This document shows, one piece after another, positions 1 to 10,856 of a DNA stretch of 10,856 bases (within the stretch, counting starts at the first letter, position 1; the number at the start of each line of letters is the position of its first letter). This DNA is from a virus (lineage: Duplodnaviria > Heunggongvirae > Uroviricota > Caudoviricetes), in the IMG/VR virus record IMGVR_UViG_2695420523_000025, positions 1 through 10,856 of that record. One strand, written 5' to 3'. A model generated the notes under the pieces. The model made no database searches, was not told the DNA's origin, and saw only the letters and a program-made list of their open reading frames with translations. A program made the position numbers and the translations under genes.

Positions 1-861
1 CCTGTCCTGATTGATGTGAACGGCGTTCCGCTTCGTGAGAGTCTCAGCTACAACGGGGGCGGCGCAGGATTTGGCGGGCAAATGGCGGAGTGGTTGCCAC
101 CGGCGCAGAGTGTCGATGCGGCCCTGCTGCCCGCGTTGCGTCTGGGGAATGCCCGGGCAGATGATCTGGTGCGCAATAACGGAATAGCGGCTAATGCGGT
201 GGCCCTGCATAAGGATCACATTGTCGGGCATATGTTTCTGATCAGCTACCGTCTGAACTGGCGCTGGCTGGGGATGCGGGAGACCGCAGCAAAAAGCTTT
301 GTCGATGAGGTGGAGGCGGCCTGGTCGGAATACGCAGAAGGGATGTCTGGCGAGATCGACGTGGAAGGAAAACGCACATTTACGGAGTTTATCCGTGAAG
401 GTGTTGGCGTTCATGCGTTTAACGGCGAAATCTTTGTGCAGCCGGTCTGGGATACGGAAACCACGCAGTTATTCCGTACGCGTTTTAAAGCCGTGAGTCC
501 GAAACGGGTGGACACGCCAGGACACGGTATGGGGAACCGTTTTCTGCGGGCCGGGGTGGAGGTCGATCGATATGGCCGTGCCGTTGCGTACCATATCTGT
601 GAGGATGATTTTCCGTTCTCCGGGAGTGGACGATGGGAACGGATCCCGCGTGAACTTCCCACCGGGCGTCCGGCCATGCTGCATATTTTCGAGCCGGTGG
701 AGGACGGGCAGACCCGTGGGGCCAATCAGTTTTACAGCGTCATGGAACGGCTGAAGATGCTCGATTCCCTGCAGGCAACACAGCTTCAGTCGGCCATAGT
801 GAAGGCGATTTATGTCTATCATCTCACCGTAGTTGCCCGCATCGTTCGCCAACTCCACTGA
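1..861 (+). CDS. Phage portal protein, lambda gpB family; 5' end lies off-window and the 3' part appears replaced near nt 813, so likely a disrupted gene
   Basis: The frame is open from nt 1 (GTG at 16 is only the first start the ORF finder met). The translation carries blocks I recognise from lambda-family portals: YNGGGAGFGGQ, SVDAALLP, GNARADDLVRNNG, HKDHIVG, FEPVEDGQTRGANQFYSVME, TQLQSAIVKA. Recognisable similarity ends about 15 codons before the stop. Lambda-family portals are about 500-530 aa, whereas this ORF would be about 300 aa. Confidence 0.8.
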   Translation, partial: PVLIDVNGVPLRESLSYNGGGAGFGGQMAEWLPPAQSVDAALLPALRLGNARADDLVRNNGIAANAVALHKDHIVGHMFLISYRLNWRWLGMRETAAKSFVDEVEAAWSEYAEGMSGEIDVEGKRTFTEFIREGVGVHAFNGEIFVQPVWDTETTQLFRTRFKAVSPKRVDTPGHGMGNRFLRAGVEVDRYGRAVAYHICEDDFPFSGSGRWERIPRELPTGRPAMLHIFEPVEDGQTRGANQFYSVMERLKMLDSLQATQLQSAIVKAIYVYHLTVVARIVRQLH

Positions 862-937
862 AACCCTTGCTGCGTCTGGAATGTCGTTTTCCATGCTTTT
901 GATGACCGTTCATCACCCTTCCAGTTTTTCGCGGTTT

Positions 938-991
938 TGTGTATTGCAATGTGTATTGCAAATTGGCGATCGGGATGGGTGTGTATTGCAA
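938..991 (+). repeat. Three direct copies of TGTGTATTGCAA (938-949, 950-961, 980-991) just upstream of int; candidate integrase arm-type or autoregulatory sites within the att arm
   Basis: Three exact 12-bp copies read directly, two in tandem and a third 18 bp later, ending 19 bp before the int start codon. Confidence 0.55.
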
Positions 992-1009
992 ATCTCTTGA
1001 GGGCTTTTA

Positions 1010-2251
1010 ATGGCTATTGAAAACAAACTCAGTGACAAACTGTTAAAGAGTCTTGTCGGAAAACGGCAGGACAAACAAAAAACAATAGCGGATGGGCGCG
1101 GGTTGTCTGTGCGTGTAAGCATGGTTGGGGGGATCAGCTTTGTTTTTTACTATCGTCTTGGTGGCAGGGAATCCCCTCCGGTATGGCTTACACTTGGTCG
1201 CTATCCTGACATGTCTCTTGCAACGGCTAGGCGCATGCGTGATCAGTGCCGTGAATGGCTGGCTGAAAATCTGGACCCCCGCAGGCAAATAAAACTTGCT
1301 GCCGAAAAAACTATGCAACCAGTGACCGTAAGGGATGCGCTGTTTTACTGGTACGACAATCACGCCACAACAGCCAGAAAAGAGCATGAATATTTAATAA
1401 AACGATTTGAAAAGCATATCTTCCCCTATATCGGTGATATGGCTATAGAACAGTGCAAATTACACACATGGCTTACCGTCTTTGACAGGATCAAAAAAAA
1501 TGCGCCTGTTATGTCTGGTGCAATTTTTCTTGATATCAAACAGGCGTTGCGTTTTTGTCGCGTCAGGCAATACATCGCGTGCGATCCCTTTGGAGATATT
1601 AACGTAAGTTATGTCGGGCGCTCATCCGGTATAAGGGATCGCGTTCTTAATATCAATGAAACCGCTGATGTATGGTCTTATGCTTACGGTAATAATTTGC
1701 TAACTCTGTCATCAATATATAACCGAAGAATAATGGTTATCTGCCTGGTGTTTGGTTGCCGACAGCAGGAGGCGAGGCTATCCACCTGGGACGAATGGGA
1801 TTTAAAAAACTGGGTATGGACAGTCCCAAAAGAGCACAGCAAAAACAAGGAGGCTATAGTAAGGCCTGTTCCTGACGGAATAAAACAATGGATCGTTAAT
1901 CTTTACGCAGAAACAAAAAATCGCGGTTATGTTGTCGGTTGTGCTTTGCAAAGGGCGACAATAACAGGGGCTGCAAACAGAATATGCAGGCGTCTTGGTC
2001 ATGATACTAATGGCTTGTGGTGCATACATGATTTCAGGCGCACATTTTCCACTACGCTTAATGATATGGGGGCGGATCCTTATATTGTCGAACTTCTTTT
2101 AGGTCATAAAGTGAAAGGGGTTGCTGGTGTTTACAATAAAAGCAGGCATATAAAGAAAAAACTTGAGGTGCTTAATATGTGGGTTAATTACCTTAATACG
2201 ATAGCAGGATTTAACAACAACGTTATCGAGCTTAATAAAGAGGTGGTGTGA
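1010..2251 (+). CDS. int: Tyrosine site-specific integrase, P4-like family
   Basis: 413-aa ORF with RBS GAGGG about 7 nt upstream. N-terminal arm-binding-type region (GRGLSVRVSMVGGISFVFYYRLGG...LTLGRYPDMSLATAR). C-terminal catalytic region with HDFRRTF, LLGH and the tyrosine in GVYNKS. AT-richer than the portal fragment. Confidence 0.93.
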   Translation: MAIENKLSDKLLKSLVGKRQDKQKTIADGRGLSVRVSMVGGISFVFYYRLGGRESPPVWLTLGRYPDMSLATARRMRDQCREWLAENLDPRRQIKLAAEKTMQPVTVRDALFYWYDNHATTARKEHEYLIKRFEKHIFPYIGDMAIEQCKLHTWLTVFDRIKKNAPVMSGAIFLDIKQALRFCRVRQYIACDPFGDINVSYVGRSSGIRDRVLNINETADVWSYAYGNNLLTLSSIYNRRIMVICLVFGCRQQEARLSTWDEWDLKNWVWTVPKEHSKNKEAIVRPVPDGIKQWIVNLYAETKNRGYVVGCALQRATITGAANRICRRLGHDTNGLWCIHDFRRTFSTTLNDMGADPYIVELLLGHKVKGVAGVYNKSRHIKKKLEVLNMWVNYLNTIAGFNNNVIELNKEVV

Positions 2252-2252
2252 T

Positions 2253-2510
2253 ATGGCAATTTATTCTCTTGTTGATGAAAACGATTTGCGCACAATGAAG
2301 GACATTGATCGGTTCATTCGTGAAAAAGAGTGCATAGCACTTACCACGCTGGCAAACTCAACACGCTGGAAAATGGAGCAGGCAGGTAAATTCCCGCGAC
2401 GTATCAAGATCGGTGAACGTGCTGCAGGGTATCGACTTTCAGAGGTTCAGGCATGGATCCGTGGTGAGTGGCATCCTGGATGGAAACCTGGAAAAACAAA
2501 ACAGCAATAA
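2253..2510 (+). CDS. alpA: AlpA-family (Phage_AlpA) helix-turn-helix regulator / excisionase-like protein
   Basis: 85-aa ORF starting 1 nt after the int stop (TGAtATG) with RBS AAGAGGTGG. The core LTTLANSTRWKMEQAGKFPRRIKIGERAAGYRLSEVQAWI matches the AlpA/Xis pattern. Confidence 0.85.
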   Translation: MAIYSLVDENDLRTMKDIDRFIREKECIALTTLANSTRWKMEQAGKFPRRIKIGERAAGYRLSEVQAWIRGEWHPGWKPGKTKQQ

Positions 2511-2523
2511 CCAGTAAATAATG

Positions 2524-2546
2524 CCCCTCATCACGAGGGGTTTTTT
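2524..2546 (+). terminator. Intrinsic terminator closing the int-alpA unit
   Basis: Stem CCCCTC (2524-2529), loop ATCAC, stem GAGGGG (2535-2540), then TTTTTT (2541-2546). Confidence 0.65.
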
Positions 2547-2566
2547 GTCTATAAGGTAAAAACGCG

Positions 2567-3145
2567 ATGAATAAAAATATTGCCGTGACGGGCAAGGGGT
2601 ACGCTCGTCCAGTGAAAAAATTCTGCGATATTCGTGATCTCGTCGTTCTGCGCTTTGATAGTGTGAACGTTCGTGTGGTGTATCTGAACGGCGATCCGTG
2701 GTTTGTTGCAAAAGATGTTTGTGCTGCGCTGGAACTAACCAATTCGCGTACGGCGTTGCAGATGCTTGATGATGATGAAAAGGGAGTAAATTTAACTTAC
2801 ACCCCAGGAGGAAATCAGAATATGAGAATTATCTCTGAGTCAGGTTTCTACAAACTAATAGCCCGCAGCCGCAAAGCAACGACGCCTGGCACATTTGCTC
2901 ATCGTTTCAGTAACTGGGTATTCAGAAATGTGATACCAGGTATCAGAAAAACGGGGACTTATGGTATCCCGTGGGGTGCATTACAGGATTTTTCCCGCCG
3001 TAAAGAGCAATATCAAATAAGTGCCAGCGAGAAGGGGAGGGAGCTACAGGCATGTAAGCGCAAAAAGCGTGAGCTGGAGGAAGAAGAAAAAACGCTGATA
3101 CGTGAATATCAGCCTGAGTTTTACTTTGGTAACCGCATTCAGTGA
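2567..3145 (+). CDS. Bro-N domain protein (antirepressor-like) with a charged coiled-coil C-terminus
   Basis: 192-aa ORF. The core VVYLNGDPWFVAKDVCAALELTNSRTALQMLDDDEKG is typical of the Bro-N fold. C-terminal KRKKRELEEEEKTLIREYQ is predicted helical. It starts only 20 nt after the terminator T-tract, so its promoter is unclear. Confidence 0.7.
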   Translation: MNKNIAVTGKGYARPVKKFCDIRDLVVLRFDSVNVRVVYLNGDPWFVAKDVCAALELTNSRTALQMLDDDEKGVNLTYTPGGNQNMRIISESGFYKLIARSRKATTPGTFAHRFSNWVFRNVIPGIRKTGTYGIPWGALQDFSRRKEQYQISASEKGRELQACKRKKRELEEEEKTLIREYQPEFYFGNRIQ

Positions 3146-3154
3146 CAAAACAAA

Positions 3155-3175
3155 GGCGACCGCAAAAGGGTCGCC
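3155..3175. terminator. GC hairpin between the convergent Bro-N and minus-strand genes; possible terminator, better placed for minus-strand transcripts
   Basis: GGCGACC (3155-3161), loop of 7 nt, GGTCGCC (3169-3175). No T-run follows on the + strand; the minus strand reads TTTGTTTTG after the stem. Confidence 0.35.
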
Positions 3176-3241
3176 AGTGGGAACAAGGGAAAACAAAAGC
3201 ATCACCAACAATGCCACATTTGCGGCTGGTGGGCAATGTGA

Positions 3242-3421
3242 TCAGTCAGATTTGGTTCGTTCCAAGGTTTGCAACGAGAGCTTTTTCCTGTGCTCTTTAA
3301 GGAATTTCTCAAGAGCAAACGAACAAGGTGCGAATCTTTCTGATTCATGTTCATGCGCTATATTTTTGCGTCGTCTCTTACGAGTTGGTGATGGTGTTTT
3401 GGTTGATTCTGTGTCGCTCAT
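3242..3421 (-). CDS. Small basic hypothetical protein (59 aa), absent from the ORF track
   Basis: Manually translated from the minus strand: MSDTESTKTPSPTRKRRRKNIAHEHESERFAPCSFALEKFLKEHRKKLSLQTLERTKSD, with stop TGA at 3244-3242. AGGA lies 7 nt upstream of the ATG. It sits 57 nt downstream of the RHH-like gene on the same strand. Confidence 0.3.
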   Translation of the reverse strand: MSDTESTKTPSPTRKRRRKNIAHEHESERFAPCSFALEKFLKEHRKKLSLQTLERTKSD

Positions 3422-3478
3422 GGTGCTGTCCTGTAAAGCAATGCGCCTGCGTTCCTCAAACTATGGCGCTGATAGTGG

Positions 3479-3784
3479 CTATTCCTGCTCTTTGACCTTG
3501 CGTCGCTGGAGTTCTTCACGCGCGACGGTGACGAGTTGCCCGATCTCCTCGGCGGCTTTGACTCCGATTTTTTCCACCTGCGCTAGGGCATCGAGCGAAG
3601 AAACCAGGAGGTTTTCTCCGCTTCCTTCTGCCTGGCGGCGGGCGATTTCACCGCGCATGGCGGTTACTATGAATCCGGCGTTGCTTTCACCGTCCAGTTT
3701 TACGGATTCCATGCCTTCAATAACATCATGCGGGATCCGAGCTGTCAGTGATTGTGATTTTGCGTTTTTTGAACCTGTAGCCAT
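3479..3784 (-). CDS. Ribbon-helix-helix-like DNA-binding protein; candidate repressor of the divergent rightward operon
   Basis: The N-terminus KSQSLTARIPHDVIEGMESVKLDGESNAGFIVTAMRGEIARR has the RHH beta-strand plus two helices pattern, followed by a helical tail. I prefer the ATG at 3784 (RBS GAGAGGA 6 nt upstream) over the ORF-track TTG at 3799. It is divergent from a region with palindromic operator-like sites. Confidence 0.6.
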   Translation of the reverse strand: MATGSKNAKSQSLTARIPHDVIEGMESVKLDGESNAGFIVTAMRGEIARRQAEGSGENLLVSSLDALAQVEKIGVKAAEEIGQLVTVAREELQRRKVKEQE

Positions 3785-3805
3785 CTGTAATCCTCTCAAT
3801 GAAAG

Positions 3806-3900
3806 TGTAAGACAATATACACATAAAAAGTCTTACATAAAAGCATTGACATGTAAGCCACCTATAAATAAAGTTACTTACACCTTGTTAATACAAGGTG
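3806..3900. promoter_or_regulatory. Divergent promoter/operator region with TGTAAG/CTTACA half-sites, a sigma70-like rightward promoter and a 7-bp-stem palindrome
   Basis: Half-sites TGTAAG at 3806-3811 and 3852-3857, inverted partners CTTACA at 3832-3837 and 3877-3882. TTGACA at 3846-3851 with TAAAGT 17 bp downstream at 3869-3874 (rightward). On the minus strand TATATT is a candidate -10 for the RHH gene. Palindrome CACCTTG-N6-CAAGGTG at 3881-3900. Confidence 0.45.
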
Positions 3901-3980
3901 CAGAAACGACGAAACCCCGCACTGTAGGAGCAGTAACGGGGCTTCTAACCACCAACGATAGCAAGATTATCGAGGCAGCT

Positions 3981-4184
3981 ATGAGAAATTATACCATACA
4001 CCCGCAAGGGCGGGACTCGTACAACCTGAATAAATACATCTGGCGTTTTATCGCCCTGAGCACCGCACAACCGCGCGTGATTCACATCGTGGCCACCAGC
4101 GAACAGGAAGCACGCCAGCAATCCCCGGCTGGCTGCGTGATGGTATTCGCCGCCCGTATTCGTCAGGGGGTGTGCCATGCCTGA
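3981..4184 (+). CDS. Small hypothetical protein (67 aa), first gene of the rightward operon
   Basis: ATG at 3981 with GAGG 5 nt upstream, in frame with the stop at 4182-4184, which overlaps the start of the next gene by 8 nt. It is the only plausible part of the long low-complexity ORF 3102..4184. Confidence 0.45.
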   Translation: MRNYTIHPQGRDSYNLNKYIWRFIALSTAQPRVIHIVATSEQEARQQSPAGCVMVFAARIRQGVCHA

Positions 4185-4497
4185 TATGTCAAATTACCAG
4201 TACCTGATTAATCCGCATTTTAACTGTGAGCATGATATTGCTAAAAAGGTTTATTCCGCTGCTGATGGGGCTACTGACAATATATCAATGGCTGTTGCGT
4301 CAATTGGTAGCCTGATGTGGCATGCGTCAGAAAATGAGGACTATGACGAAAAGGCCATGCGCATTGATATGGGTAATATCGGTTTGTTACTGGCAATGCT
4401 TGGGCAGTTTGATATTTCGTTACGGTGCACCATTGAAAATGCCACAGATGCATTAAATGCCATAAAGAAAGCGAATACTGATTCAAATCGGGGATAA
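4177..4497 (+). CDS. Hypothetical protein (106 aa)
   Basis: ATG at 4177 with RBS AGGGGG 6 nt upstream. Overlaps the preceding stop. No recognisable motif. Confidence 0.6.
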   Translation: MPDMSNYQYLINPHFNCEHDIAKKVYSAADGATDNISMAVASIGSLMWHASENEDYDEKAMRIDMGNIGLLLAMLGQFDISLRCTIENATDALNAIKKANTDSNRG

Positions 4498-4503
4498 ATA
4501 ATC

Positions 4504-4803
4504 ATGAGAACATATTTATCTGGCTTGACTGCCAGCGGTTATGCACACCCCAAAATTATCCCCGGCGCTATTTATCTGGATAAGAACGGTAACAGAGTAA
4601 CGGTAAAAGAGCTGATGTTTGACCGTGTGTATTTTATTCGTGATGGCTATTCATTTCATAGTTCGCTGAACGTGGAGATCTTTATTAGCAGATTCAGGCG
4701 GGAAATCCCGCTTTCCAGAAAAAACCATGTGTCACGTGTGAATGTGGATAAAAAACTACAGGAACTGAAAAACATGATTGCCGCGTGGAGAGAGCAGAAA
4801 TGA
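4504..4803 (+). CDS. Hypothetical protein (99 aa)
   Basis: ATG at 4504, 7 nt after the previous stop. Its stop TGA (4801-4803) overlaps the primase ATG (4800-4802). No recognisable motif. Confidence 0.6.
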   Translation: MRTYLSGLTASGYAHPKIIPGAIYLDKNGNRVTVKELMFDRVYFIRDGYSFHSSLNVEIFISRFRREIPLSRKNHVSRVNVDKKLQELKNMIAAWREQK

Positions 4804-6617
4804 AAAAAGCGCCAAATTTAAAACACCAGCCGCGTGACAAAATGACGGAAGTCATCATTTTTGCGGGTAGTGATGCGTGGGCACATGCGAAGCAGTGGCA
4901 GGAACAGGACGGGCGACTGGCTGGCGATAACGTGCCTCCTGTCTGGCTTGGAGAGCAACAACTTGCCGAACTGGACAACCTGCAAATCGTACCGGACGGA
5001 CGCTATCGCGTGCGTCTCTATCAGGCGGGGTTATTGCGTCCGGGGCTTGTTAATACCATCGGGCAGAAACTGGCAGCGGCAGGTGTCAGGGATGCTGATT
5101 ATTACTCTGAAGGAATGCACAGCCAGAAACGGGAGAACTGGCGCGAATATCTGGAACGTGAACGGGCAGAGCTGGCGGAAAAGAAAAAGGTAGTTGAACT
5201 GCCTGTAAAGAAAAAAGAGCGGGTAAAAGACGATAACGCTTCATCACTGGCGCTTAACCAGATGGGAGCAAGTCAACGCGGCGAAGTTCTCCTGGCACAT
5301 TATGGCGGTGAACTGGCGATTCATGCTGACTCTGACACTGTTCACCATTACAACGGCGTTGTATGGGAGCCAGTACAGGATAAAGAATTACAGCGAGCTA
5401 TGGCACAGATTTTCATTGATGCGGAGATCAGCTATTCGCAGAACGCCATTAAATCGGCGGTCGATACCATGAAGTTAAGTTTGCCTGTTATGGGGAATAC
5501 AGCCCGTAACCTGATTGGATTCAGTAACGGGGTATTTGATACCAGAACAGGTAATTTTCGGGAGCATAACAAAAACGACTGGTTGTTAATTGCCAGTGAA
5601 TTACCTTTCAGCCCACCAGCAGAGGGGGAAACGCTGGCAACACATGCGCCGAATTTCTGGAAGTGGTTACGCCGTTCGGTGGCTGAGAATGACCGCAAGG
5701 CGGATCGCGTACTGGCTGCATTATTCATGGTGCTGGCGAACCGGTACGACTGGCAGTTATTCATTGAGGTAACAGGTCCAGGGGGAAGTGGTAAAAGCGT
5801 GATGGCGGAGATTTGCACCATGCTGGCGGGTAAGGCCAACACAGTATCGGCAAGCATGAAGGCGCTGGAAGATGCAAGGGAACGCGCGTTAGTGGTTGGC
5901 TTTTCGCTGATTATCATGCCGGATATGACCCGCTACGCTGGTGATGGGGCAGGAATTAAGGCCATTACAGGCGGTGACAAGGTGGCAATTGACCCGAAAC
6001 ACAAAGCCCCCTACTCAACGCGTATTCCGGCAGTAGTGCTGGCGGTTAACAATAACGCCATGTCATTCAGTGACCGCAGCGGGGGGATCTCACGTCGTCG
6101 GGTGATATTCAATTTTTCGGAAGTTGTACCGGAGAACGAACGCGATCCAATGCTGGCGGAAAAAATAGAAGGTGAGCTGGCGGTAGTGATTCGCCATCTG
6201 CTTACACGGTTTGCTGACCAGGACGAAGCCAGACGCCTGTTATATGAGCAGCAGAAATCTGAAGAAGCACTGGCGATAAAGCGAGAGGGGGATTCGCTGG
6301 TGGACTTCTGCGGCTATCTCATGGCGTCGGTAATGTGTGATGGCCTGTTAGTGGGTAATGCTGAAATTGTGCCATTCAGCCCACGCAGGTATCTCTATCA
6401 TGCCTATCTGGCTTATATGAGGGCACATGGGTTTGGTAAACCTGTAACACTGACGCGCTTCGGTAAAGATATGCCGGGGGCAATGGCGGAATATGGCAGG
6501 GAGTATATGAAACGGAAAACGAAGCACGGTTTGCGTTCAAACGTGACACTGACGGAGGAATCAGAAGACTGGATGCCATCATGTGTATCGGTCACTAATG
6601 ACGATAGCAAAAATTAA
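4800..6617 (+). CDS. Replication primase/helicase, P4 alpha-like (N-terminal primase-type region plus SF3/D5-type NTPase)
   Basis: Long ORF with Walker A GPGGSGKS and a downstream hydrophobic stretch ending in D (SLIIMPDM, Walker B-like). Start taken at ATG 4800 (RBS GGAGAGAG), but GTG 4785 and ATG 4842 are alternatives. An iteron array follows immediately. Confidence 0.9.
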   Translation: MKKAPNLKHQPRDKMTEVIIFAGSDAWAHAKQWQEQDGRLAGDNVPPVWLGEQQLAELDNLQIVPDGRYRVRLYQAGLLRPGLVNTIGQKLAAAGVRDADYYSEGMHSQKRENWREYLERERAELAEKKKVVELPVKKKERVKDDNASSLALNQMGASQRGEVLLAHYGGELAIHADSDTVHHYNGVVWEPVQDKELQRAMAQIFIDAEISYSQNAIKSAVDTMKLSLPVMGNTARNLIGFSNGVFDTRTGNFREHNKNDWLLIASELPFSPPAEGETLATHAPNFWKWLRRSVAENDRKADRVLAALFMVLANRYDWQLFIEVTGPGGSGKSVMAEICTMLAGKANTVSASMKALEDARERALVVGFSLIIMPDMTRYAGDGAGIKAITGGDKVAIDPKHKAPYSTRIPAVVLAVNNNAMSFSDRSGGISRRRVIFNFSEVVPENERDPMLAEKIEGELAVVIRHLLTRFADQDEARRLLYEQQKSEEALAIKREGDSLVDFCGYLMASVMCDGLLVGNAEIVPFSPRRYLYHAYLAYMRAHGFGKPVTLTRFGKDMPGAMAEYGREYMKRKTKHGLRSNVTLTEESEDWMPSCVSVTNDDSKN

Positions 6618-6630
6618 ACTTATGGAATAA

Positions 6631-6853
6631 CTGTTCACCACTGTTCACCCTGTCATAAATATCTTTTGTATCAGTATGTTATAGGGTGAACAGTTATTTA
6701 TGAACTGTTCACCAAACTATTCACTGTTCACCTTTTTGATTGTTTATTGAGCTTCAAGGGTGAACAGTGGTGAACAGTTGGTGAATAGTTTTTGTGAAAC
6801 TGTTCACCCCTTAACATTATGAATAAAAAGTTAAAATATCAAAAGGTGAACAG
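6631..6853. repeat. Iteron array, putative origin of replication of the element
   Basis: Exact CTGTTCACC at 6631, 6641, 6705, 6724 and 6800. Exact inverse GGTGAACAG at 6685, 6759, 6769 and 6845. Degenerate GGTGAATAG at 6780. Tandem copies have 10-11 bp periodicity. Two inverted pairs have 11-bp AT-rich spacers (6685-6713 and 6780-6808). The surroundings are AT-rich and directly downstream of the primase gene. Confidence 0.75.
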
Positions 6854-6904
6854 GTGAAGGGTTAAAACGCAAAAATTTTAATTTACTGCTGTGAGATAAA
6901 GCCT

Positions 6905-7150
6905 ATGACAGCGAAGCACACAAAAAAATCACAATCGCACGCCCTTGATTTGACGGAACACTGGTTAAGGGTGTCGATAAAAATCATCGACCGCAACGCC
7001 GGGGAAGGATATGCGAAAGCACATCCCGAACTGATTAGCTCATTCATGACAACGGCAGCTGCAAACTTTGCCACGCTGACAGAACGGGAGATTGCCGAAG
7101 CGGAACAGGTGACAACCATCAACGTTAAAACCGGAGAGCAGACAGCATGA
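6905..7150 (+). CDS. Hypothetical protein (81 aa), translationally coupled to the SSB-like gene
   Basis: ATG at 6905. Its stop TGA (7148-7150) overlaps the downstream ATG (7147-7149). No recognisable motif. Confidence 0.55.
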   Translation: MTAKHTKKSQSHALDLTEHWLRVSIKIIDRNAGEGYAKAHPELISSFMTTAAANFATLTEREIAEAEQVTTINVKTGEQTA

Positions 7151-7569
7151 CAGCACAGATAGCGGCTTACGGGCGGCTGGTGGCTGACCCGCAGTTAAAG
7201 ACCACCAGCAAGGGTACACAAATGACGATGGCGAGTATGGCGGTCCCACTTCCGTGCAGCCAGGCAGATGACGGAACGGCGACGATGTGGTTATCCGTCC
7301 TGGCGTTTGGCAGACAGGCCGAAGCACTGGCAAAGCACCGCAAGGGTGAACTCCTGAGCGTGGCGGGTAACATGCAGGTGAGCCAGTGGACCGGACAGAA
7401 CGGGGAGACGCGGCAGGGCTGGCAGGTTATCGCAGACAGCGTAATCAGTGCGAGAACGGCGCGACCGGGCGGCAAAAAAGGCCAACAGGGGCAGGCTACT
7501 GATGCACTGAGCAGAGCAAAACAACAGGCGGGAAATGATGATCCGTACGGGGATAACATACCGTTTTAA
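7147..7569 (+). CDS. ssb: Single-stranded DNA-binding protein (SSB family) with acidic C-terminal tip ending IPF
   Basis: 140-aa OB-fold-like N-terminus (IAAYGRLVADPQLK...WLSVLAFGRQAEALAKHRKGELLSVAGNMQVSQWTGQNGETRQGWQVIADSV) that parallels E. coli SSB block by block. Gly/Gln-rich linker. C-terminus DDPYGDNIPF compared with SSB DFDDDIPF. Confidence 0.8.
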   Translation: MTAQIAAYGRLVADPQLKTTSKGTQMTMASMAVPLPCSQADDGTATMWLSVLAFGRQAEALAKHRKGELLSVAGNMQVSQWTGQNGETRQGWQVIADSVISARTARPGGKKGQQGQATDALSRAKQQAGNDDPYGDNIPF

Positions 7570-7585
7570 GCAACGAGTAACAGAA

Positions 7586-7607
7586 GCCGGAGCAATCCGG
7601 CTTTTTT
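7586..7607 (+). terminator. Intrinsic terminator after the SSB-like gene
   Basis: GCCGGA (7586-7591), loop GCAA, TCCGGC (7596-7601), then TTTTTT (7602-7607). Confidence 0.7.
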
Positions 7608-7609
7608 AT

Positions 7610-7681
7610 GGGTCCTCCCGGTGTAGTGACCTGCCACGGGGCGGGAGCGTCGCGGAAAAAGGCTGGTTTTTGCATTTTCAT
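7610..7681 (+). repeat. Copy 1 of a 72-bp GC-rich intergenic module; candidate shared regulatory element
   Basis: GGGTCCTCCCGGTG...CTGCCACGGGGCGGGAGCG.CGCGGAAAAAGGCT.GTTTTTGCATTTTCAT. 66 of 72 positions match the copy at 10146-10217 by manual alignment. It begins 3 nt after the terminator T-run. Confidence 0.6.
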
Positions 7682-7868
7682 GGCGGCGGCAGCATGTGTA
7701 GTAATTTATTGATAATTAAAAGTTATTTCTGTTTTCACCTGTACAATATTTTTTTCTCCCTGTCATTAGACCAGTTTGCAATTAATTGAAATATATAAAT
7801 AAATCTGTTTTTCACCTGCCAGGTGGAGTTGCCTGTGTCAAAACGTGTTCAGATGGCGGGATATTTAT

Positions 7869-7892
7869 GCCGGATTTTATCCGGCTTTTTTG
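7869..7892 (+). terminator. Intrinsic terminator inside the intergenic region upstream of the capsid operon
   Basis: GCCGGA (7869-7874), loop TTTTA, TCCGGC (7880-7885), then TTTTTT (7886-7891). The stem is the same as in the 7586 terminator. Confidence 0.6.
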
Positions 7893-7993
7893 TGTCTGAA
7901 TCTCATTAATCTATTTTTATGATAGAAATATGTTTATCTACCACTTTTATCGATCAATAATGTGCACAGTTTAGTCAGTAAGAGGAAGTTACT

Positions 7994-8203
7994 GTGAGTT
8001 GTATTAATGACCTGAACACGGGCGATATCAGGGGTGGTTCCGTTCATCTGGATGCGCAGACCGTTATGCGCCTTAAGCAGTACAGGATCGACCATATAAA
8101 TCATCATCCTGACAAACCATTACCAGGTGTGGCGCAGATTGTCAGGCATGCCGTAAACGCCTGGCTTAATCAGAGTGGTTTTGCATCGGAGAGTGAGCAA
8201 TGA
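7994..8203 (+). CDS. Small hypothetical protein (69 aa), translationally coupled to the protease-capsid gene
   Basis: GTG start with strong RBS AAGAGGAAG 7 nt upstream. Its stop TGA (8201-8203) overlaps the ATG at 8200-8202. A weak RHH-like pattern (MRLKQYRIDH...VAQIVRHAVNAWL) is not conclusive. Confidence 0.5.
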   Translation: MSCINDLNTGDIRGGSVHLDAQTVMRLKQYRIDHINHHPDKPLPGVAQIVRHAVNAWLNQSGFASESEQ

Positions 8204-10113
8204 ATCACTGGTACACCATTAAGGCGGCGGATGTTCGCGGAGCGGCGGATATATCTATCTATGAGGAGATTGGCGGCTTCGGTGTTACTGCAAAGCAGTT
8301 CGCGGAAGACCTGAAAGCCCTTGGCGATGTTTCACATATCAATCTGAGGATCCATTCACCAGGTGGTGATGTGTTTGAAGGCATCGCCATCTATAACCTG
8401 CTACGGAATCATCCGGCAGACATTACGGTTTATATCGATGGTGTTGCGGCTTCAATGGCTTCGGTTGTCGCAATGGCTGGCGATCGTGTTGTTATGCCGG
8501 AGAACGCCATGATGATGATCCATAAACCGTGGGGTATCTCTGGCGGAAATGCTGGCGATATGCGTGATTATGCTGATTTGCTGGATAAGGTGGAAACCGT
8601 GTTAATCCCTGCTTATGCCAGAAAAACGGGCAAATCAGCACAGGAAATTACCGCCATGCTGGAGGATGAAACCTGGATGGATGGGAAAGAATGCCTTAAG
8701 CACGGTTTTGCTGATGAATTGTTGCCATCCGTCAGAGCAATGGCGCGAATTGAATCGAAACGCACAGGAGATTTTTTACATATGCCGGAAACCATTAAAG
8801 GAATGATTACACCGCCACAGGGAGCGGCAAATATTGCTGGTAATGAACAGAAGCGCATCAATGGAATAAGTGAAGTGTTTAGCTTGTTCGGCAGTCGTTA
8901 CGACGGGATCAAAATGGCGTGTCTGGAAGATGCATCATGTACACCGGAAATGGCCCGTGAAAAGCTGTTGAACGAGCTGGGGCGCGAGTCCACGCCATCC
9001 AATAAAAATACCCCGCCTCATATCTATGCCGGAAACGGAAACATAACAGGTGATGCAATTCGTCAGGGGCTTTATTCCCGTCTTGGGTATGAACGCCCTG
9101 AACGAGGCAACCCTTACGCGATGATGAGCCTTTTTGAAATGGCCCAGGCATCACTGGTTGATCGTGGTATCACTGTGAGCGGTTTTATTAATCGCTCGCA
9201 GGTTGTTAATGCGGCTTTTACACACAGCAGCAGCGATTTTTCTCATATTCTGGCTGGTGGCGCTGAAAAATCAGTACTGAAAGGCTGGCAGGACAGCGGC
9301 GAAACGTTCCAGAAATGGACGCGTACCGGTTCGCTTTCAAACTTTCATGAAGCAAAGCGCGTTGGTCTGAATGGTTTTTCAAAGCTGGATAAAGTACCGG
9401 AAGGCGCGGAATATAAATACATCACCACTAGCGATAAAGGTGTACCTATTGCGCTGGCCACGTACGGGAATATTTTTTCCGTTACCCGTCAGGCCATTAT
9501 CAACGATGACCTGACCCAGTTAACTACAATCCCCATGGCGATGGGACGCGCAGCTGCCAGAACAGTTGGCAATCTGGTTTATCTCCTGTTAACCAGCAAC
9601 GGCAAGTTTACGGATGGTAAAGCGTTATTCCATGCCGATCATAAAAATCTTATTGCGAAGGATATGGACATGGAGGGGCTTAACGAAGCCCGTAAGCTGA
9701 TGCGCCTCCAGGAAGACGCTAACGGCGATTCGCTGAATATTACCCCCGCATTTGTCCTGGTCCCCGCCGCGCTGGAGTCTGCCGCACATCGCGCCATTCT
9801 GTCATCGTCATCACTCTTTCCGGTTGATGGCGTGGGCACTATCAATCAGAACCCCGGCATCATTAACGTGGTGAAAGATATGGCGGAGGTAATCGTTGAG
9901 CCACGTCTTGATAAAGCCAATAACAAGGAGTGGTATGTGGCAGCGGCGAAGGGTATGGACACGATAGAGGTCGCTTATCTTGATGGTATTGATACGCCAT
10001 ATCTTGAGGAGCAGGAGGGCTTTACTGTTGATGGCGTCGCCTGGAAGGTGCGCATAGATGCAGGTGTCGCGGCCCTCGACTATCGCGGATTACTGAAATC
10101 GAGTGGAGCATGA
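8200..10113 (+). CDS. Fusion protein: N-terminal ClpP-like (S14-type) prohead serine protease joined to a C-terminal putative major capsid domain
   Basis: N-terminal 200 aa carry ClpP signatures HSPGGDVFEGIAIYNLL, catalytic-serine context GVAASMASVVAMAGD and histidine context MMMIHKPWG. The remaining roughly 430 aa have the size and position expected of a scaffold plus capsid region. The capsid assignment is from context and general resemblance, not a verified alignment. Confidence 0.8.
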   Translation: MNHWYTIKAADVRGAADISIYEEIGGFGVTAKQFAEDLKALGDVSHINLRIHSPGGDVFEGIAIYNLLRNHPADITVYIDGVAASMASVVAMAGDRVVMPENAMMMIHKPWGISGGNAGDMRDYADLLDKVETVLIPAYARKTGKSAQEITAMLEDETWMDGKECLKHGFADELLPSVRAMARIESKRTGDFLHMPETIKGMITPPQGAANIAGNEQKRINGISEVFSLFGSRYDGIKMACLEDASCTPEMAREKLLNELGRESTPSNKNTPPHIYAGNGNITGDAIRQGLYSRLGYERPERGNPYAMMSLFEMAQASLVDRGITVSGFINRSQVVNAAFTHSSSDFSHILAGGAEKSVLKGWQDSGETFQKWTRTGSLSNFHEAKRVGLNGFSKLDKVPEGAEYKYITTSDKGVPIALATYGNIFSVTRQAIINDDLTQLTTIPMAMGRAAARTVGNLVYLLLTSNGKFTDGKALFHADHKNLIAKDMDMEGLNEARKLMRLQEDANGDSLNITPAFVLVPAALESAAHRAILSSSSLFPVDGVGTINQNPGIINVVKDMAEVIVEPRLDKANNKEWYVAAAKGMDTIEVAYLDGIDTPYLEEQEGFTVDGVAWKVRIDAGVAALDYRGLLKSSGA

Positions 10114-10120
10114 CAACAAG

Positions 10121-10143
10121 GGCGGCGATAGCCGCCTTTTTTT
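10121..10143 (+). terminator. Intrinsic terminator after the protease-capsid gene
   Basis: GGCGGC (10121-10126), loop GATA, GCCGCC (10131-10136), then TTTTTTT (10137-10143). Confidence 0.7.
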
Positions 10144-10145
10144 AC

Positions 10146-10217
10146 GGGTCCTCCCGGTGGGGTGGTCTGCCACGGGGCGGGAGCGGCGCGGAAAAAGGCT
10201 AGTTTTTGCATTTTCAT
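10146..10217 (+). repeat. Copy 2 of the 72-bp GC-rich intergenic module
   Basis: Matches 7610-7681 at 66 of 72 positions. It has the same placement, 2 nt after a terminator T-run and upstream of the next operon. Confidence 0.6.
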
Positions 10218-10370
10218 TCGTCATCATCATCTTTCTATTGTATTGAATTTTAAGTATTTTTATTTTTGGCATGTTAATTTTGCTTGTTTTATGCTCAACA
10301 TATAGCGCATTTTTTGACCTCTTCTGAAAGTTGTTCGCAAGATGCATGTTTAAAACATTCTGGAGCGGGT

Positions 10371-10856
10371 ATGGATCGAGAACTGAAAAATCTGATGCTG
10401 AACATTAATCAACTGGCGGCGATAGCGGGAATATGTCGTCAGACTGCGGCGGCAAGGCTGAAAAACATCCAGCCAGCCGGAGGGCATGACAAGCTAAAAC
10501 TCTATCGGGTGACTGACATTCTGACCTGTTTTCTTGATCTTCCCGTTCCGGCATCACTGGAAGAAATGGAGCCACATGACCGTAAGGCCTGGTATCAGTC
10601 CGAACGTGAGCGCCTCAGGTTCGAACAGGAAACGGCGCAACTCATACCCGCCGATGATGTGCGAAAAGAGATGGCTATATGGGGGGAAATCGTAAGCGAG
10701 GAACTGGCAAAACTCCCCAATATTCTGGCACGTGATGCCGGGCTTAAACCGATGGCAGTAAACAGAGTGCAGTCAATTATTGACGATTTGCGTAATCAGA
10801 TTATCAGCCGGATGGTAAAAAATGACGTAGTGAATGAGGTCGCAAAACAGGCATGA
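10371..10856 (+). CDS. Nu1-like small terminase subunit or packaging-specificity DNA-binding protein
   Basis: Start taken at ATG 10371 (RBS GGAG 5 nt upstream) rather than the ORF-track 10284. N-terminal HTH-like LNINQLAAIAGICRQTAAARLKN, then a LY...ERERLRFEQE region and a C-terminal helical region, with an overall layout like lambda Nu1. The stop is at the last 3 nt of the window. Confidence 0.55.
   Translation: MDRELKNLMLNINQLAAIAGICRQTAAARLKNIQPAGGHDKLKLYRVTDILTCFLDLPVPASLEEMEPHDRKAWYQSERERLRFEQETAQLIPADDVRKEMAIWGEIVSEELAKLPNILARDAGLKPMAVNRVQSIIDDLRNQIISRMVKNDVVNEVAKQA

What the first reader, a model, noticed from the sequence alone, without database searches (positions are those of the whole stretch)
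814..10856. Candidate capsid-forming phage satellite with its own replication module
In one 10-kb block there are int, alpA, a primase/helicase with iterons, SSB, a protease-capsid protein and a Nu1-like TerS, but no tail, lysis or large terminase genes. This suggests an element that builds its own heads and depends on a helper, plausibly the surrounding lambdoid phage, for the terminase large subunit and tails.
Basis: inference. Interest (0 to 1): 0.8.

Follow-up and report, generated by a model that had tools for sequence, protein, structure and literature searches.

The report
Phage satellite embedded in prophage portal gene
This is a real ~11-kb phage satellite of an already described kind (a "helper-embedded PICI") that sits inside, and splits, the portal gene of a lambda/phage-21-like prophage; it carries its own replication genes, shell protein, small terminase and two cos packaging sites, but it is not a full "capsid-forming" satellite.

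Summary
Window 802-10856 holds int, alpA, Bro-N, an Icd-like gene, DUF4222, a P4-type primase/helicase followed by about 11 iterons, SSB, a ClpP-protease/scaffold/major-capsid fusion and a DUF1441 small terminase. There are no tail, lysis, portal or TerL genes. Homology to an intact phage-21 portal gene stops exactly at 814.

The element belongs to a published class, the HE-PICIs (Tommasini et al. 2023), at their site B:Phage_portal_2:241. It has the same 'aaggcgat' core and the diagnostic doubled TGTATTGC motif at the published spacing. Closely related complete elements carry only one more gene, a 93-aa ORF. It is therefore a PICI with all five core components, not a cf-PICI, because portal, connectors and TerL are absent.

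Three things are new here:
- There are two lambda-like cos sites. cos1 is about 94% identical to the cos of cdtI/Tritos-type phages. cos2 has its own cosB and the satellite's own TerS.
- The capsid, TerS and cosN genes match mEp460/cdtI-type lambdoid phages, not the lambda/21-type prophage around the element.
- The window is a mosaic, with a crossover in a 276-bp shared stretch (3199-3474), that was not found in any other assembly. It could be a natural recombinant, a rearrangement or an assembly chimera.

Overall this is a new member of a known kind, of moderate interest.

The parts
1..814 (+). 5' part of the host prophage's portal gene (lambda gene B cognate), interrupted by the satellite. 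The ORF runs on into satellite DNA and stops at 861.
   Evidence: Pfam Phage_portal_2 2.4e-63, profile 2-242 of 354. 97.8% nt identity to the phage 21 portal, ending at 814. 99.4% identity to E. coli EC28 over 1-3300.
802..814 (+). attL core AAGGCGATTTATG, at portal codons ~272-276, which is site B:Phage_portal_2:241.
   Evidence: attB in phage 21 is AAGGCGATGTATG, and the EC28 attR is AAGGCGATGTATG. The paper's supplement gives the identity block 'aaggcgat' for this site group.
938..961 (+). HE-PICI-specific doubled motif TGTGTATTGCAATGTGTATTGCAA (candidate arm-type Int or AlpA sites). A third copy lies at 979-990.
   Evidence: TRF 2 x 12 nt at 100%. The motif and its spacing, 132 +/- 2 bp downstream of the attP centre, are described in PMC10111431 section 19. 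Here it begins 130-132 bp from the core centre at 808.
1010..2251 (+). Tyrosine integrase (413 aa).
   Evidence: Pfam. The identical protein is listed in 6633 blocks of the collection, and all 10 contexts shown lie in the portal gene of Nu1/gpA/gpW-type prophages.
2253..2510 (+). AlpA-family regulator/excisionase. It is followed by a hairpin and T-run terminator at 2523-2541.
   Evidence: PF05930 5.4e-14; terminator scan.
2567..3145 (+). Bro-N domain protein (the 'Bro zone'); PHROG anti-repressor.
   Evidence: PF02498 4.9e-20; phrog_2593 3.8e-85.
3199..3474 (.). Recombination interval. This 276-bp stretch is identical to both parental lineages: portal-type elements on the left and the cspD-clpS-type element on the right.
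   Evidence: SNP map. The window equals L003/L015 up to 3474 and equals L010 from 3199 onward.
3479..3784 (-). YlcI/YnfO family protein, the only gene on the minus strand. It diverges from a strong promoter-like site at 3846-3874 on the + strand.
   Evidence: NF041551 4.7e-20; TTGACA-17-TAAAGT, 10 of 12 matches.
3975..4178 (+). Icd-like small protein (PHROG 'transcriptional repressor').
   Evidence: NF033153 5.5e-20; phrog_6196 3.4e-42.
4177..4803 (+). Two small conserved satellite genes: a hypothetical 106-aa protein (4177-4497) and a DUF4222 protein (4504-4803).
   Evidence: phrog_15327 1.4e-71; PF13973 7.3e-17.
4800..6617 (+). P4-family primase / SF3-type helicase (replication initiator, 605 aa).
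   Evidence: D5_N, DUF5906, Pox_D5; phrog_864 3e-192; TIGR01613.
6626..6855 (.). Replication origin: 11 iterons GGTGAA[C/T]AG / CTGTTCACC in both orientations, in an AT-rich stretch.
   Evidence: GC falls to 0.38 at 6501-7000. The position 3' of the initiator gene is the one shown to be the ori in Gram-negative PICIs (PMC6092414).
6905..7569 (+). An 81-aa conserved hypothetical protein (6905-7150) and SSB (7147-7569).
   Evidence: phrog_1231 8e-49; PF00436 7.3e-16.
7610..7842 (+). cos1, comprising cosQ GGGTCCT (7610-7616), cosN GGGCGGGAGCGT (7639-7650) and a helper-type cosB. It ends ~20 nt into a vestigial cdtI-type terS start whose ATG codons are now GTG. It is preceded by the hairpin/T-run at 7586-7607, and the cassette is flanked by 16-nt direct repeats (7595-7610 and 7879-7894).
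   Evidence: 94.6% identity to bp 1-204 of phages cdtI and Tritos; 92.7% to HannyBb. The cdtI record starts at GGGCGGGAGCGT. Alignment; direct repeats D7.
7994..8203 (+). 69-aa ORF overlapping the start of the capsid fusion gene; function unknown.
   Evidence: phrog_4934 2e-32. NCBI annotation in relatives does not call it.
8200..10113 (+). ClpP-like prohead protease / scaffold / HK97-type major capsid protein fusion (637 aa).
   Evidence: Pfam; NF045540 at 904 bits; Ser/His alignment. It is 57% identical to the fusion of mEp460-type phages, with a ~29-aa linker deletion. The identical protein is listed in 6200 blocks of the collection.
10146..10370 (+). cos2, comprising cosQ GGGTCCT (10146-10152), cosN GGGCGGGAGCGG (10175-10186) and a satellite-specific cosB. 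It is preceded by the terminator hairpin GGCGGC-GATA-GCCGCC plus T7 at 10121-10143.
   Evidence: Alignment with helper cos regions; sequence read; motif positions.
10371..10856 (+). Small terminase (DUF1441, 161 aa). The window ends at its stop codon.
   Evidence: PF07278 4.1e-36; phrog_141 9.6e-57. 67% identical to the TerS of the mEp460-type prophage in L011.

Best explanation
The block is a helper-embedded PICI (HE-PICI), a PICI-type phage satellite of about 11.2 kb. It is integrated by its own tyrosine integrase at the site B:Phage_portal_2:241, inside and co-oriented with the portal gene of a lambda/phage-21-type prophage.

What the sequence and its relatives show:
- The portal gene is split at codons ~272-276, and no replacement sequence is supplied.
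- In EC28, a relative with the same integrase, attL and Bro zone (its integrase was not checked for residue identity), precise excision restores an intact portal ORF.
- The element carries int/alpA, a Bro-N zone, a P4-type primase-helicase with an adjacent iteron origin plus SSB, and a late zone. The late zone holds a protease-scaffold-capsid fusion, two lambda-like cos sites and a DUF1441 TerS.
- Relatives end after one more 93-aa ORF.

Inferred life cycle:
1. On induction, Int and AlpA excise the satellite. This was observed experimentally for another HE-PICI, where the composite excised first, then replicated, then released the satellite.
2. The primase-helicase fires the iteron origin and produces concatemers.
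3. Packaging starts either at cos1, which mimics the complete cos of cdtI/Tritos-type helpers and would be read by the helper's own TerS, or at cos2, which would be read by the satellite's own TerS. In both cases the helper's gpA-type TerL cuts the conserved cosN.
4. Portal, TerL, head completion proteins, tails and lysis functions come from the helper.
5. The satellite's shell protein either builds or co-assembles satellite-size heads, by analogy with SaPIbov5 Ccm, or the DNA is packed as tetramers in full-size heads. Four units equal 1.00 x the mEp460 genome.

The cognate packaging helper is an mEp460/cdtI-type lambdoid phage, not the lambda/21-type prophage that the element interrupts. In this copy the integration module and the late module come from two different satellite lineages.
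For: Class membership:
- Homology to the intact portal ends at 814, and the att core AAGGCGAT matches the paper's identity block for this site.
- The doubled TGTATTGC motif lies at the published spacing.
- The element has the four-zone Integration/Bro/Replication/Late order, co-oriented with the late gene.
- The identical integrase sits in portal genes in all 10 contexts shown.

Completeness:
- Elements 98-99.8% identical over 3147-10856 end with TerS plus a 93-aa ORF at cspD-clpS, mug-rpoD, rcnB-thiM, the csiD region and in terL.

Other evidence:
- Excision restores the portal: 530 of 531 positions identical to phage 21.
- Iterons mark the origin.
- cos sites are documented.
- Helper type: the fusion is 57% and the TerS 67% identical to mEp460-type, and cosQ/cosN are near-identical to that type. 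Against phage 21, TerS has no similarity, and the mEp460-type TerL and portal are 24% and 25% identical to the phage-21-type ones.
- Matched arrangements exist elsewhere. ClpP-MCP-type satellites sit in terL of mEp460-type prophages. cap_E/Nu1-type satellites, whose cosN equals lambda's, sit in portals of lambda-type prophages.
- Published experiments cover excision and replication of a HE-PICI (PMC10111431), two cos sites and ori function in EcCICFT073 (PMC6092414), and Ccm (PMC8569155).
Against: - The right end (attR) of this copy is outside the window, so its ability to excise is unproven.
- The exact mosaic was not found in 5426 complete E. coli genomes or in three other collections. It may be a non-mobile rearrangement or an assembly chimera.
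- No experiment shows that this capsid fusion or this TerS is used.
- In EcCICFT073, deleting the capsid or decoration homologues did not relieve interference with lambda, so the role of PICI capsid genes in E. coli is unresolved.
- The last ~11 residues of the satellite TerS differ from the acidic tail of the helper-type TerS, so recruitment of TerL is only inferred.
- Two co-oriented cos sites 2.5 kb apart could in principle lead to cutting into sub-genomic pieces.
Confidence: 0.8

Rival explanations
1. It is a true capsid-forming PICI (cf-PICI) that builds complete heads itself and steals only tails.
For: It encodes a protease-scaffold-MCP fusion, which in mEp460-type phages is the only shell, scaffold and protease gene. 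It also encodes a TerS. The fusion forms a satellite-specific lineage: only one of 50,697 phage records exceeds 60% identity. This echoes the separation of cf-PICI capsids from phage capsids.
Against: There is no portal, head-tail adaptor or connector, HNH or TerL in the window. None is present in complete relatives either, which end after one 93-aa ORF. Those genes are the components that define cf-PICIs.
Confidence: 0.03
2. The capsid fusion and TerS are not used to make satellite-specific particles. They would instead act mainly as interference or defence factors that poison helper head assembly or packaging, or as a captured 'backup copy' of late genes. The satellite DNA would then be packed as multimers into ordinary helper heads via cos mimicry.
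For: cos1 is a near-perfect copy of the helper cos, which suffices for packaging by the helper terminase, as in EcCICFT073. Four units equal 1.00 x the mEp460 genome. EcCICFT073 is packaged in full-size heads, and deleting its capsid or decoration homologues did not relieve interference with lambda. Tommasini et al. propose late-gene capture and a backup-copy role.
Against: The identical 637-aa protein is kept intact in thousands of assemblies and across at least six integration modules, with the catalytic Ser and His conserved. It is only 57% identical to any phage version, which indicates long-term selection inside satellites rather than a recent passive capture. cos2, with its own cosB and cognate TerS, argues for active redirection of packaging.
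Confidence: 0.3
3. The int/Bro part (1-3474) and the replication/late part (3199-10856) are not one mobile element. The join would be either an assembly chimera across a 276-bp repeat, or a single homologous crossover between two resident satellites, that is, a chromosomal rearrangement with mismatched attL and attR.
For: The crossover lies within 276 bp that are identical in both lineages. No other assembly carries the joint. The single viral-contig match is only 90-94% identical. All 10 contexts of this integrase carry the other late zone, cap_E/Nu1. Genomes with several co-resident copies of this satellite family exist (L011-L013).
Against: Mosaicism between these lineages is demonstrably natural. 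L022 combines the portal integrase with the 605-aa primase lineage, and L006 and L008 have swapped the SSB/cos1 segment. The 93-aa ORF downstream is 89% identical between the lineages and offers a second crossover site.
Confidence: 0.25
4. It is an ordinary small or decayed prophage, or a P4-like satellite.
For: It has a P4-family primase (TIGR01613), alpA, an Icd-like gene and phage-derived late genes.
Against: The same ~11-kb gene set is bounded by att sites at many loci and lacks tail, lysis and TerL genes. int points inward and is followed by alpA, which is the PICI arrangement. No Sid, Psu or Delta match was found. Rfam found no C4/isrK immunity RNA. The cos sites are lambda-like rather than P2-like.
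Confidence: 0.02

Closest known systems
HE-PICIs, site group B:Phage_portal_2:241 (Tommasini, Mageeney & Williams 2023, NAR Genom Bioinform, PMC10111431)
   Same: Integration is inside the portal gene of a lambdoid prophage and co-oriented with it. The 'aaggcgat' core is the same, the doubled TGTATTGC motif lies at the published distance, the int-alpA / Bro / primase-SSB / late zone order is the same, and the size is ~11 kb. No replacement sequence is supplied for the interrupted gene.
   Different: The other carriers of this exact integrase that were examined (10 of 10) have a lambda-type late zone: cap_E, gpD-like, HTH, Nu1, and one cos with lambda cosN. This copy instead has the ClpP-MCP fusion, DUF1441 TerS and two cos sites of another satellite lineage, so its late zone does not match the prophage it is embedded in.
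Classical Gram-negative PICIs such as EcCICFT073 (Fillol-Salom et al. 2018, PMC6092414; 2019, PMC6739421) and SatelliteFinder 'Type A' PICIs (PMC10085698)
   Same: All five PICI core components are present: int, alpA, pri-rep with the ori 3' of the initiator, a capsid homologue and terS. Transcription is unidirectional. cosQ and cosN are lambda-like and shared with the helper, while cosB differs. There are two cos sites, as in EcCICFT073.
   Different: EcCICFT073 has no TerS and uses Rpp to reprogramme the helper TerS. This element has a full-length TerS homologue (67% identical to the helper type) and no detected Rpp. Its capsid gene is a protease-scaffold-MCP fusion rather than the lambda E/D-like pair. 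It sits in a prophage gene rather than at a chromosomal attC.
cf-PICIs, e.g. EcCIEDL933 (Alqurainy et al., bioRxiv 10.1101/2022.09.08.507074)
   Same: The left half is PICI-type (int, alpA, pri-rep). MCP, protease and TerS are satellite-encoded and diverged from the phage versions.
   Different: Portal, head-tail connectors, HNH and TerL are absent, so the element cannot make packaging-competent heads on its own.
SaPIbov5 Ccm (Carpena et al. 2016, PMC5052747; Hawkins et al. 2021, PMC8569155)
   Same: A cos-type satellite encodes a homologue of the helper's HK97-fold capsid protein. That protein co-assembles with helper proteins and yields satellite-size heads.
   Different: The host phylum is different and there is no sequence relationship. 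Here the homologue keeps the protease and scaffold domains. No structural or genetic data exist for it.

Membership tests
HE-PICI (helper-embedded PICI) | [quoted passage not shown] | tested here: met
   The portal 5' half lies at 1-814 on the + strand, 97.8% identical to phage 21, with homology ending at 814. int, alpA and the primase are on the + strand.
HE-PICI (helper-embedded PICI) | Uses one of the catalogued sites with its identity block (B:Phage_portal_2:241, 'aaggcgat') | tested here: met
   The core AAGGCGAT(T/G)TATG is at 802-814. The Pfam profile match ends at position 242.
HE-PICI (helper-embedded PICI) | Doubled motif tgTGTATTGCantgTGTATTGCa 132 +/- 2 bp downstream (and 81 +/- 2 bp upstream) of the attP centre | tested here: met
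   The downstream copy is at 938-961, 130-132 bp from the centre at 808. The upstream copy lies beyond the window. In EC28 it is present at 31605-31626, about 81-100 bp upstream of the attR core centre.
HE-PICI (helper-embedded PICI) | The interrupted gene is not repaired by an attP replacement sequence, and excision restores it | tested here: met
   The portal ORF ends at 861, after 16 residues read from satellite DNA. In-silico excision in EC28 restores a 531-codon portal ORF, 530/531 identical to phage 21. attR of this copy was not visible.
HE-PICI (helper-embedded PICI) | The integrase belongs to the single HE-PICI integrase clade | not tested
   No phylogeny was built. Indirect support: the identical integrase lies in portal genes in all 10 contexts shown.
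PICI (SatelliteFinder core set) | int, alpA-type regulator, primase-replicase, capsid-morphogenesis gene and terS are present, and tail, holin, portal and connector genes are absent | tested here: met
   for presence. for absence, in the window and in complete relatives. The definition is taken from PMC10085698.
PICI | Helper-phage-dependent induction, packaging and high-frequency transfer | not testable with these tools
   This requires induction and transduction experiments.
cf-PICI | Satellite-encoded portal, head-tail adaptor/connector and TerL (with or without HNH), in addition to MCP, protease and TerS | tested here: not met
   None is present in window 802-10856. Relatives 98-99.8% identical end after one 93-aa ORF.
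P4-like satellites | The Psu-Delta-Sid hijacking operon, a CI/C4-type immunity RNA and a P2-type cos | tested here: not met
   No such Pfam or PHROG hits were found. Rfam gave no C4 or isrK match. The cos sites are lambda-like.

The most novel reading that the evidence does not exclude
The element would be a functional three-party satellite. It is physically embedded in the portal gene of a lambda/21-type prophage and gates that gene, so it blocks the phage until it excises. Its two cos sites, TerS and shell protein are specific for a different helper lineage (mEp460/cdtI-type). It would then act as a cis-acting brake on one resident phage while parasitising another. Its two cos sites, with different cosB specificities, would widen its helper range, and its complete protease-scaffold-MCP gene would make satellite-specific shells on a stolen portal. 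That would be a state intermediate between classical PICIs and cf-PICIs.
Probability: 0.15. Interest if true: 0.6.

Novelty: new member of a known kind. Interest (0 to 1): 0.4.

Why it matters
The element confirms that HE-PICIs, satellites that hold a helper's essential late gene hostage, can be recognised from raw sequence. It also adds three testable details to a class known so far from a single paper.

- Integration and late modules are exchanged between satellite lineages at a short shared segment. This can leave a satellite embedded in one phage type but equipped for another.
- The very common E. coli lineage with the ClpP-MCP fusion carries two cos sites. One is a near-perfect copy of a helper's whole cos. 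The other is paired with the satellite's own TerS.
- That lineage encodes all shell-forming functions but neither portal nor TerL. It is therefore a natural test case for whether PICI capsid genes in E. coli actually build satellite-size heads.

The late module is present in 187 of 5426 complete E. coli genomes, so the biology is relevant to gene transfer and prophage activity in this species. None of this changes the current picture of satellites.

Tried and rejected
- **Rfam scan of the whole window at E<=1.** It returned only implausible eukaryotic lncRNA and miRNA hits. No C4 or isrK immunity RNA was found, so no P4-type RNA immunity is claimed.
- **PDB sequence search with the TerS.** There were no meaningful hits. 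No relation to lambda Nu1 or to RppC could be shown by sequence. No structure prediction was run, because the family assignments were already strong and the fold would not settle function.
- **Search for the source contig or the recombinant joint.** The gapped pattern gave 0 hits in genome contigs and metagenome contigs. It gave one viral contig (L025), which proved to be only 90-94% identical and was rejected as the source.
- **Megablast of 3050-3650 against complete E. coli genomes.** The best match was 97.7% in two pieces, so the joint is not present there.
- **Search for the satellite among deposited phage genomes, as evidence of packaging.** The satellite was not found. The search instead revealed cos1.
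- **PADLOC scan of the uncharacterised proteins.** No defence cargo was found.
- **Repeat search for TerS-binding R elements in cosB of cos2.** Nothing convincing turned up.
- **Prophage-remnant and P4-like readings.** Both were considered and rejected; see the rival explanations.

Full report
**1. What is in the window**

Six-frame ORF listing and profile searches give one co-oriented gene array on the + strand:
- the truncated 5' half of a lambda-family portal gene, ORF 16-861 (Phage_portal_2, profile positions 2-242 of 354)
- int, 1010-2251
- alpA, 2253-2510
- a Bro-N protein, 2567-3145
- a divergent YlcI/YnfO gene, 3479-3784 on the minus strand
- an Icd-like gene, 3975-4178
- two small conserved genes, 4177-4497 and 4504-4803 (DUF4222)
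- a P4-family primase/helicase, 4800-6617
- an 81-aa ORF, 6905-7150
- SSB, 7147-7569
- a 69-aa ORF, 7994-8203
- a 637-aa ClpP-protease/scaffold/major-capsid fusion, 8200-10113 (NF045540 at 904 bits against a cutoff of 475; Phage_capsid_4 1.7e-53)
- a DUF1441 protein, 10371-10856, which PHROGs files as a small terminase (1e-56)

Eleven copies of the 9-mer GGTGAA[C/T]AG / CTGTTCACC lie in 6631-6853, directly after the primase stop. Only one other copy occurs in the window. Nothing in the window matches a tail, lysis, portal or TerL family apart from the interrupted host portal. No tRNA was found, no credible Rfam family and no PADLOC defence protein.

**2. The left boundary and the target**

Megablast against phage genomes shows 97.8% identity to the intact portal gene of phage 21, ending exactly at window position 814. 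Three sequences were aligned: attB of phage 21, attL of the window, and attR of E. coli EC28, a relative 99.4% identical over 1-3300. The alignment gives the core AAGGCGAT(G/T)TATG at window 802-814, corresponding to portal codons ~272-276. The interrupted ORF reads on for 16 residues of satellite DNA and stops. Removing the EC28 element in silico restores a 531-codon portal ORF identical to phage 21's at 530 of 531 positions.

**3. This is a published class**

Tommasini, Mageeney and Williams (2023, PMC10111431) described helper-embedded PICIs, or HE-PICIs. These are PICI satellites integrated in, and co-oriented with, late genes of lambdoid prophages at 14 sites. One of the sites is B:Phage_portal_2:241.
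- Their supplementary table gives the identity block 'aaggcgat' and sizes of ~10.9 kb for that group.
- They report a diagnostic doubled motif, tgTGTATTGCantgTGTATTGCa, 132 +/- 2 bp downstream of the attP centre. The window has TGTGTATTGCAATGTGTATTGCAA at 938-961, which is 130-132 bp from the core centre.
- The four-zone order they describe (Integration, Bro, Replication, Late) is the order found here.
- The identical integrase protein is listed in 6633 blocks of the assembly collection. In all 10 contexts shown it lies in the portal gene of a prophage with Nu1, gpA and gpW upstream.

Membership is therefore well supported. Only the integrase phylogeny was not rebuilt.

**4. What lies beyond the window**

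The window ends at the TerS stop codon. Segment 3147-10856 is 99.8% identical to an element between cspD and clpS (L010) and 98-99% identical to copies at several other places. Those places are mug-rpoD, rcnB-thiM, the csiD region, and inside the terL gene of mEp460-type prophages. Every one of these ends with TerS, one 93-aa ORF and less than 1 kb of non-coding DNA. The 93-aa protein has no family match and is 89% identical between the two late-zone types. The element's length is estimated at ~11.16 kb.

**5. Not a cf-PICI**

By the published definitions, a PICI has five core components: int, an alpA/stl-type regulator, pri-rep, a capsid-morphogenesis gene and terS. A cf-PICI is set apart by portal, head-tail adaptor/connector and TerL, with or without HNH (PMC10085698; bioRxiv 10.1101/2022.09.08.507074). 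This element has the five PICI components and none of the cf-PICI-specific ones. 'Capsid-forming' is therefore not justified as a family assignment.

It remains possible that the shell itself is satellite-encoded. In mEp460-type phages the homologous fusion is the only protease, scaffold and MCP gene (L011 gene order). The satellite copy keeps the ClpP catalytic Ser and His.

**6.

Both sites lie on the + strand, 2536 bp apart. Each is preceded by a hairpin and T-run.
- **cos2.** Downstream of the capsid gene's terminator hairpin (10121-10143) lies TACGGGTCCTCCCGGTGGGGTGGTCTGCCACGGGGCGGGAGCGGCGCGG. This is colinear with lambda cosQ (GGGTCCT) and cosN. It is nearly identical to the region upstream of the DUF1441 terS of mEp460-type prophages. 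The following ~180 bp, the cosB position, has diverged.
- **cos1.** A second copy lies at 7610-7842. It is 94.6% identical to bp 1-204 of phages cdtI and Tritos and 92.7% identical to HannyBb. The cdtI record begins at GGGCGGGAGCGT, that is, at the cohesive end. cos1 includes the helper's cosB and ends ~20 nt into a vestigial cdtI-type terS start whose ATG codons are now GTG. The cassette is flanked by 16-nt direct repeats of the SSB terminator (family D7).

Nine of eleven relatives carry both sites. EcCICFT073 is likewise reported to have two cos sites that both contribute to transfer (PMC6092414).

The inference is that cos1 lets cdtI-type terminase package the satellite by mimicry, while cos2 with the satellite's own TerS redirects a gpA-type TerL to satellite DNA.

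**7. Which phage is the helper?**

- The satellite fusion protein is 57% identical to that of mEp460, mEp213, mEp043, VT1-Sakai, Tritos and HannyBb. Only one of 50,697 phage records exceeds 60%.
- The satellite TerS is 67% identical to the TerS of the mEp460-type prophage in L011.
- The TerS has no detectable similarity to phage 21 TerS. The TerL and portal of the two phage types are only 24-25% identical.
- The cosN sequences differ: GGGCGGGAGCG[T/G] in the satellite against GGGCGGCGACCT in lambda-type phages.
- Satellites that normally carry this integrase have lambda-type late genes and the lambda cosN. ClpP-MCP-type satellites are found embedded in terL of mEp460-type prophages.

In matched pairs, then, the late zone mirrors the helper. 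In this window it does not. The surrounding prophage can plausibly supply induction and cis-effects, but it is unlikely to package this satellite.

**8. The mosaic**

The window is identical to portal-type elements up to 3474 and identical to the cspD-clpS-type element from 3199 onward. The joint was not found in 5426 complete E. coli genomes, in the species-representative genomes or in JGI metagenomes. The one IMG/VR match is a different sequence. Three origins are possible:
- a double-crossover module swap, which would leave a functional HE-PICI
- a single crossover between two resident satellites, which would give mismatched att sites and a permanently split portal
- an assembly chimera across the 276-bp repeat

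Natural exchange between these lineages does occur, as shown by L022, L006 and L008. I therefore favour a natural origin but cannot show it.

**9. Capsid size**

One unit of ~11.16 kb is 0.25 of an mEp460-type genome, and four units are 1.00 of it. This is compatible with tetramers in full-size heads, as proposed for multimeric EcCICFT073 packaging. It is also compatible with monomers in small heads. By simple volume scaling from my own arithmetic, a T=3 shell would hold about 0.28 of a T=7 genome. The precedent for a satellite capsid homologue that changes head size is SaPIbov5 Ccm, which occupies the pentamers of T=4 shells (PMC8569155). In EcCICFT073, however, deleting the capsid or decoration homologues did not relieve interference with lambda. 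The role of the fusion protein therefore remains inferred.

**10. Verdict**

The element is a PICI-type satellite of the HE-PICI class at a catalogued site, which makes it a new member of a known kind. The late module is common, with at least 80% coverage in 187 of 5426 complete E. coli genomes. The added value lies in the dual-cos architecture, the mismatch between helper and late zone, and the recombinant structure. All three are testable, and none overturns current understanding.

Noticed in passing
L010:12660-12941; L015:19601-19882 (just beyond the window's right edge in relatives): A 93-aa ORF always follows the TerS gene. It is 89% identical between satellites with completely different late zones (ClpP-MCP/DUF1441 against cap_E/Nu1). 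It has no Pfam, NCBIfam or PADLOC match, so it is a conserved PICI gene of unknown function.
   Followed up: partly
window 7595-7610 and 7879-7894: The cos1 cassette is bracketed by 16-nt direct repeats (ATCCGGCTTTTTTATG and ATCCGGCTTTTTTGTG), each forming the 3' half of a terminator hairpin. The ~284-bp helper cos segment looks as if it was inserted at the SSB terminator.
   Followed up: partly
L011, L012, L013 (assembly GCA_028210175.1): One E. coli genome carries three copies of this satellite lineage at three loci: in the terL of an mEp460-type prophage, near csiD, and near mug-rpoD. All three encode the identical 637-aa fusion protein. The third copy has a split primase gene and remnants of a second integrase.
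   Followed up: no
L002:19488-20188 (E. coli KSC64): In the terL-embedded relative, fragments of phage tail genes ('phage tail protein', partial, and 'tail assembly protein') are inserted between the capsid fusion gene and cos2/TerS. This is an example of late-gene capture inside the satellite.
   Followed up: no
L022:13685-19495: A portal-embedded satellite combines the window's integrase and 605-aa primase lineage with the lambda-type late zone (cap_E, gpD-like, Nu1). This is independent evidence that replication and late zones are shuffled between the two lineages.
   Followed up: partly
L020:8376-9852: Here the same HE-PICI sits next to IS elements, and only a 79-aa portal fragment is left upstream. 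It appears to be an 'abandoned' satellite in a decayed helper, as the 2023 paper noted for many HE-PICIs.
   Followed up: no
window 7994-8203: A 69-aa ORF overlaps the start codon of the capsid fusion gene and matches PHROG 4934 (2e-32). RefSeq annotation of relatives does not call it and instead calls a 57-aa ORF on the opposite strand.
   Followed up: no
window 10825-10856 compared with L011:1460-1505: The last ~11 residues of the satellite TerS (KNDVVNEVAKQA) are unlike the acidic tail of the helper-type TerS (EAGADDEEELQQEE), although residues 1-150 are 67% identical. If the tail contacts TerL, this could affect which TerL is recruited.
   Followed up: no
H59 NZ_OZ282453.1 and H60 NZ_CP059835.1: Two complete genomes match the joint region 3050-3650 in two pieces spread over ~885-890 bp (97-97.7% identity). 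This suggests further recombinant or insertion variants at the Bro / YlcI boundary.
   Followed up: no
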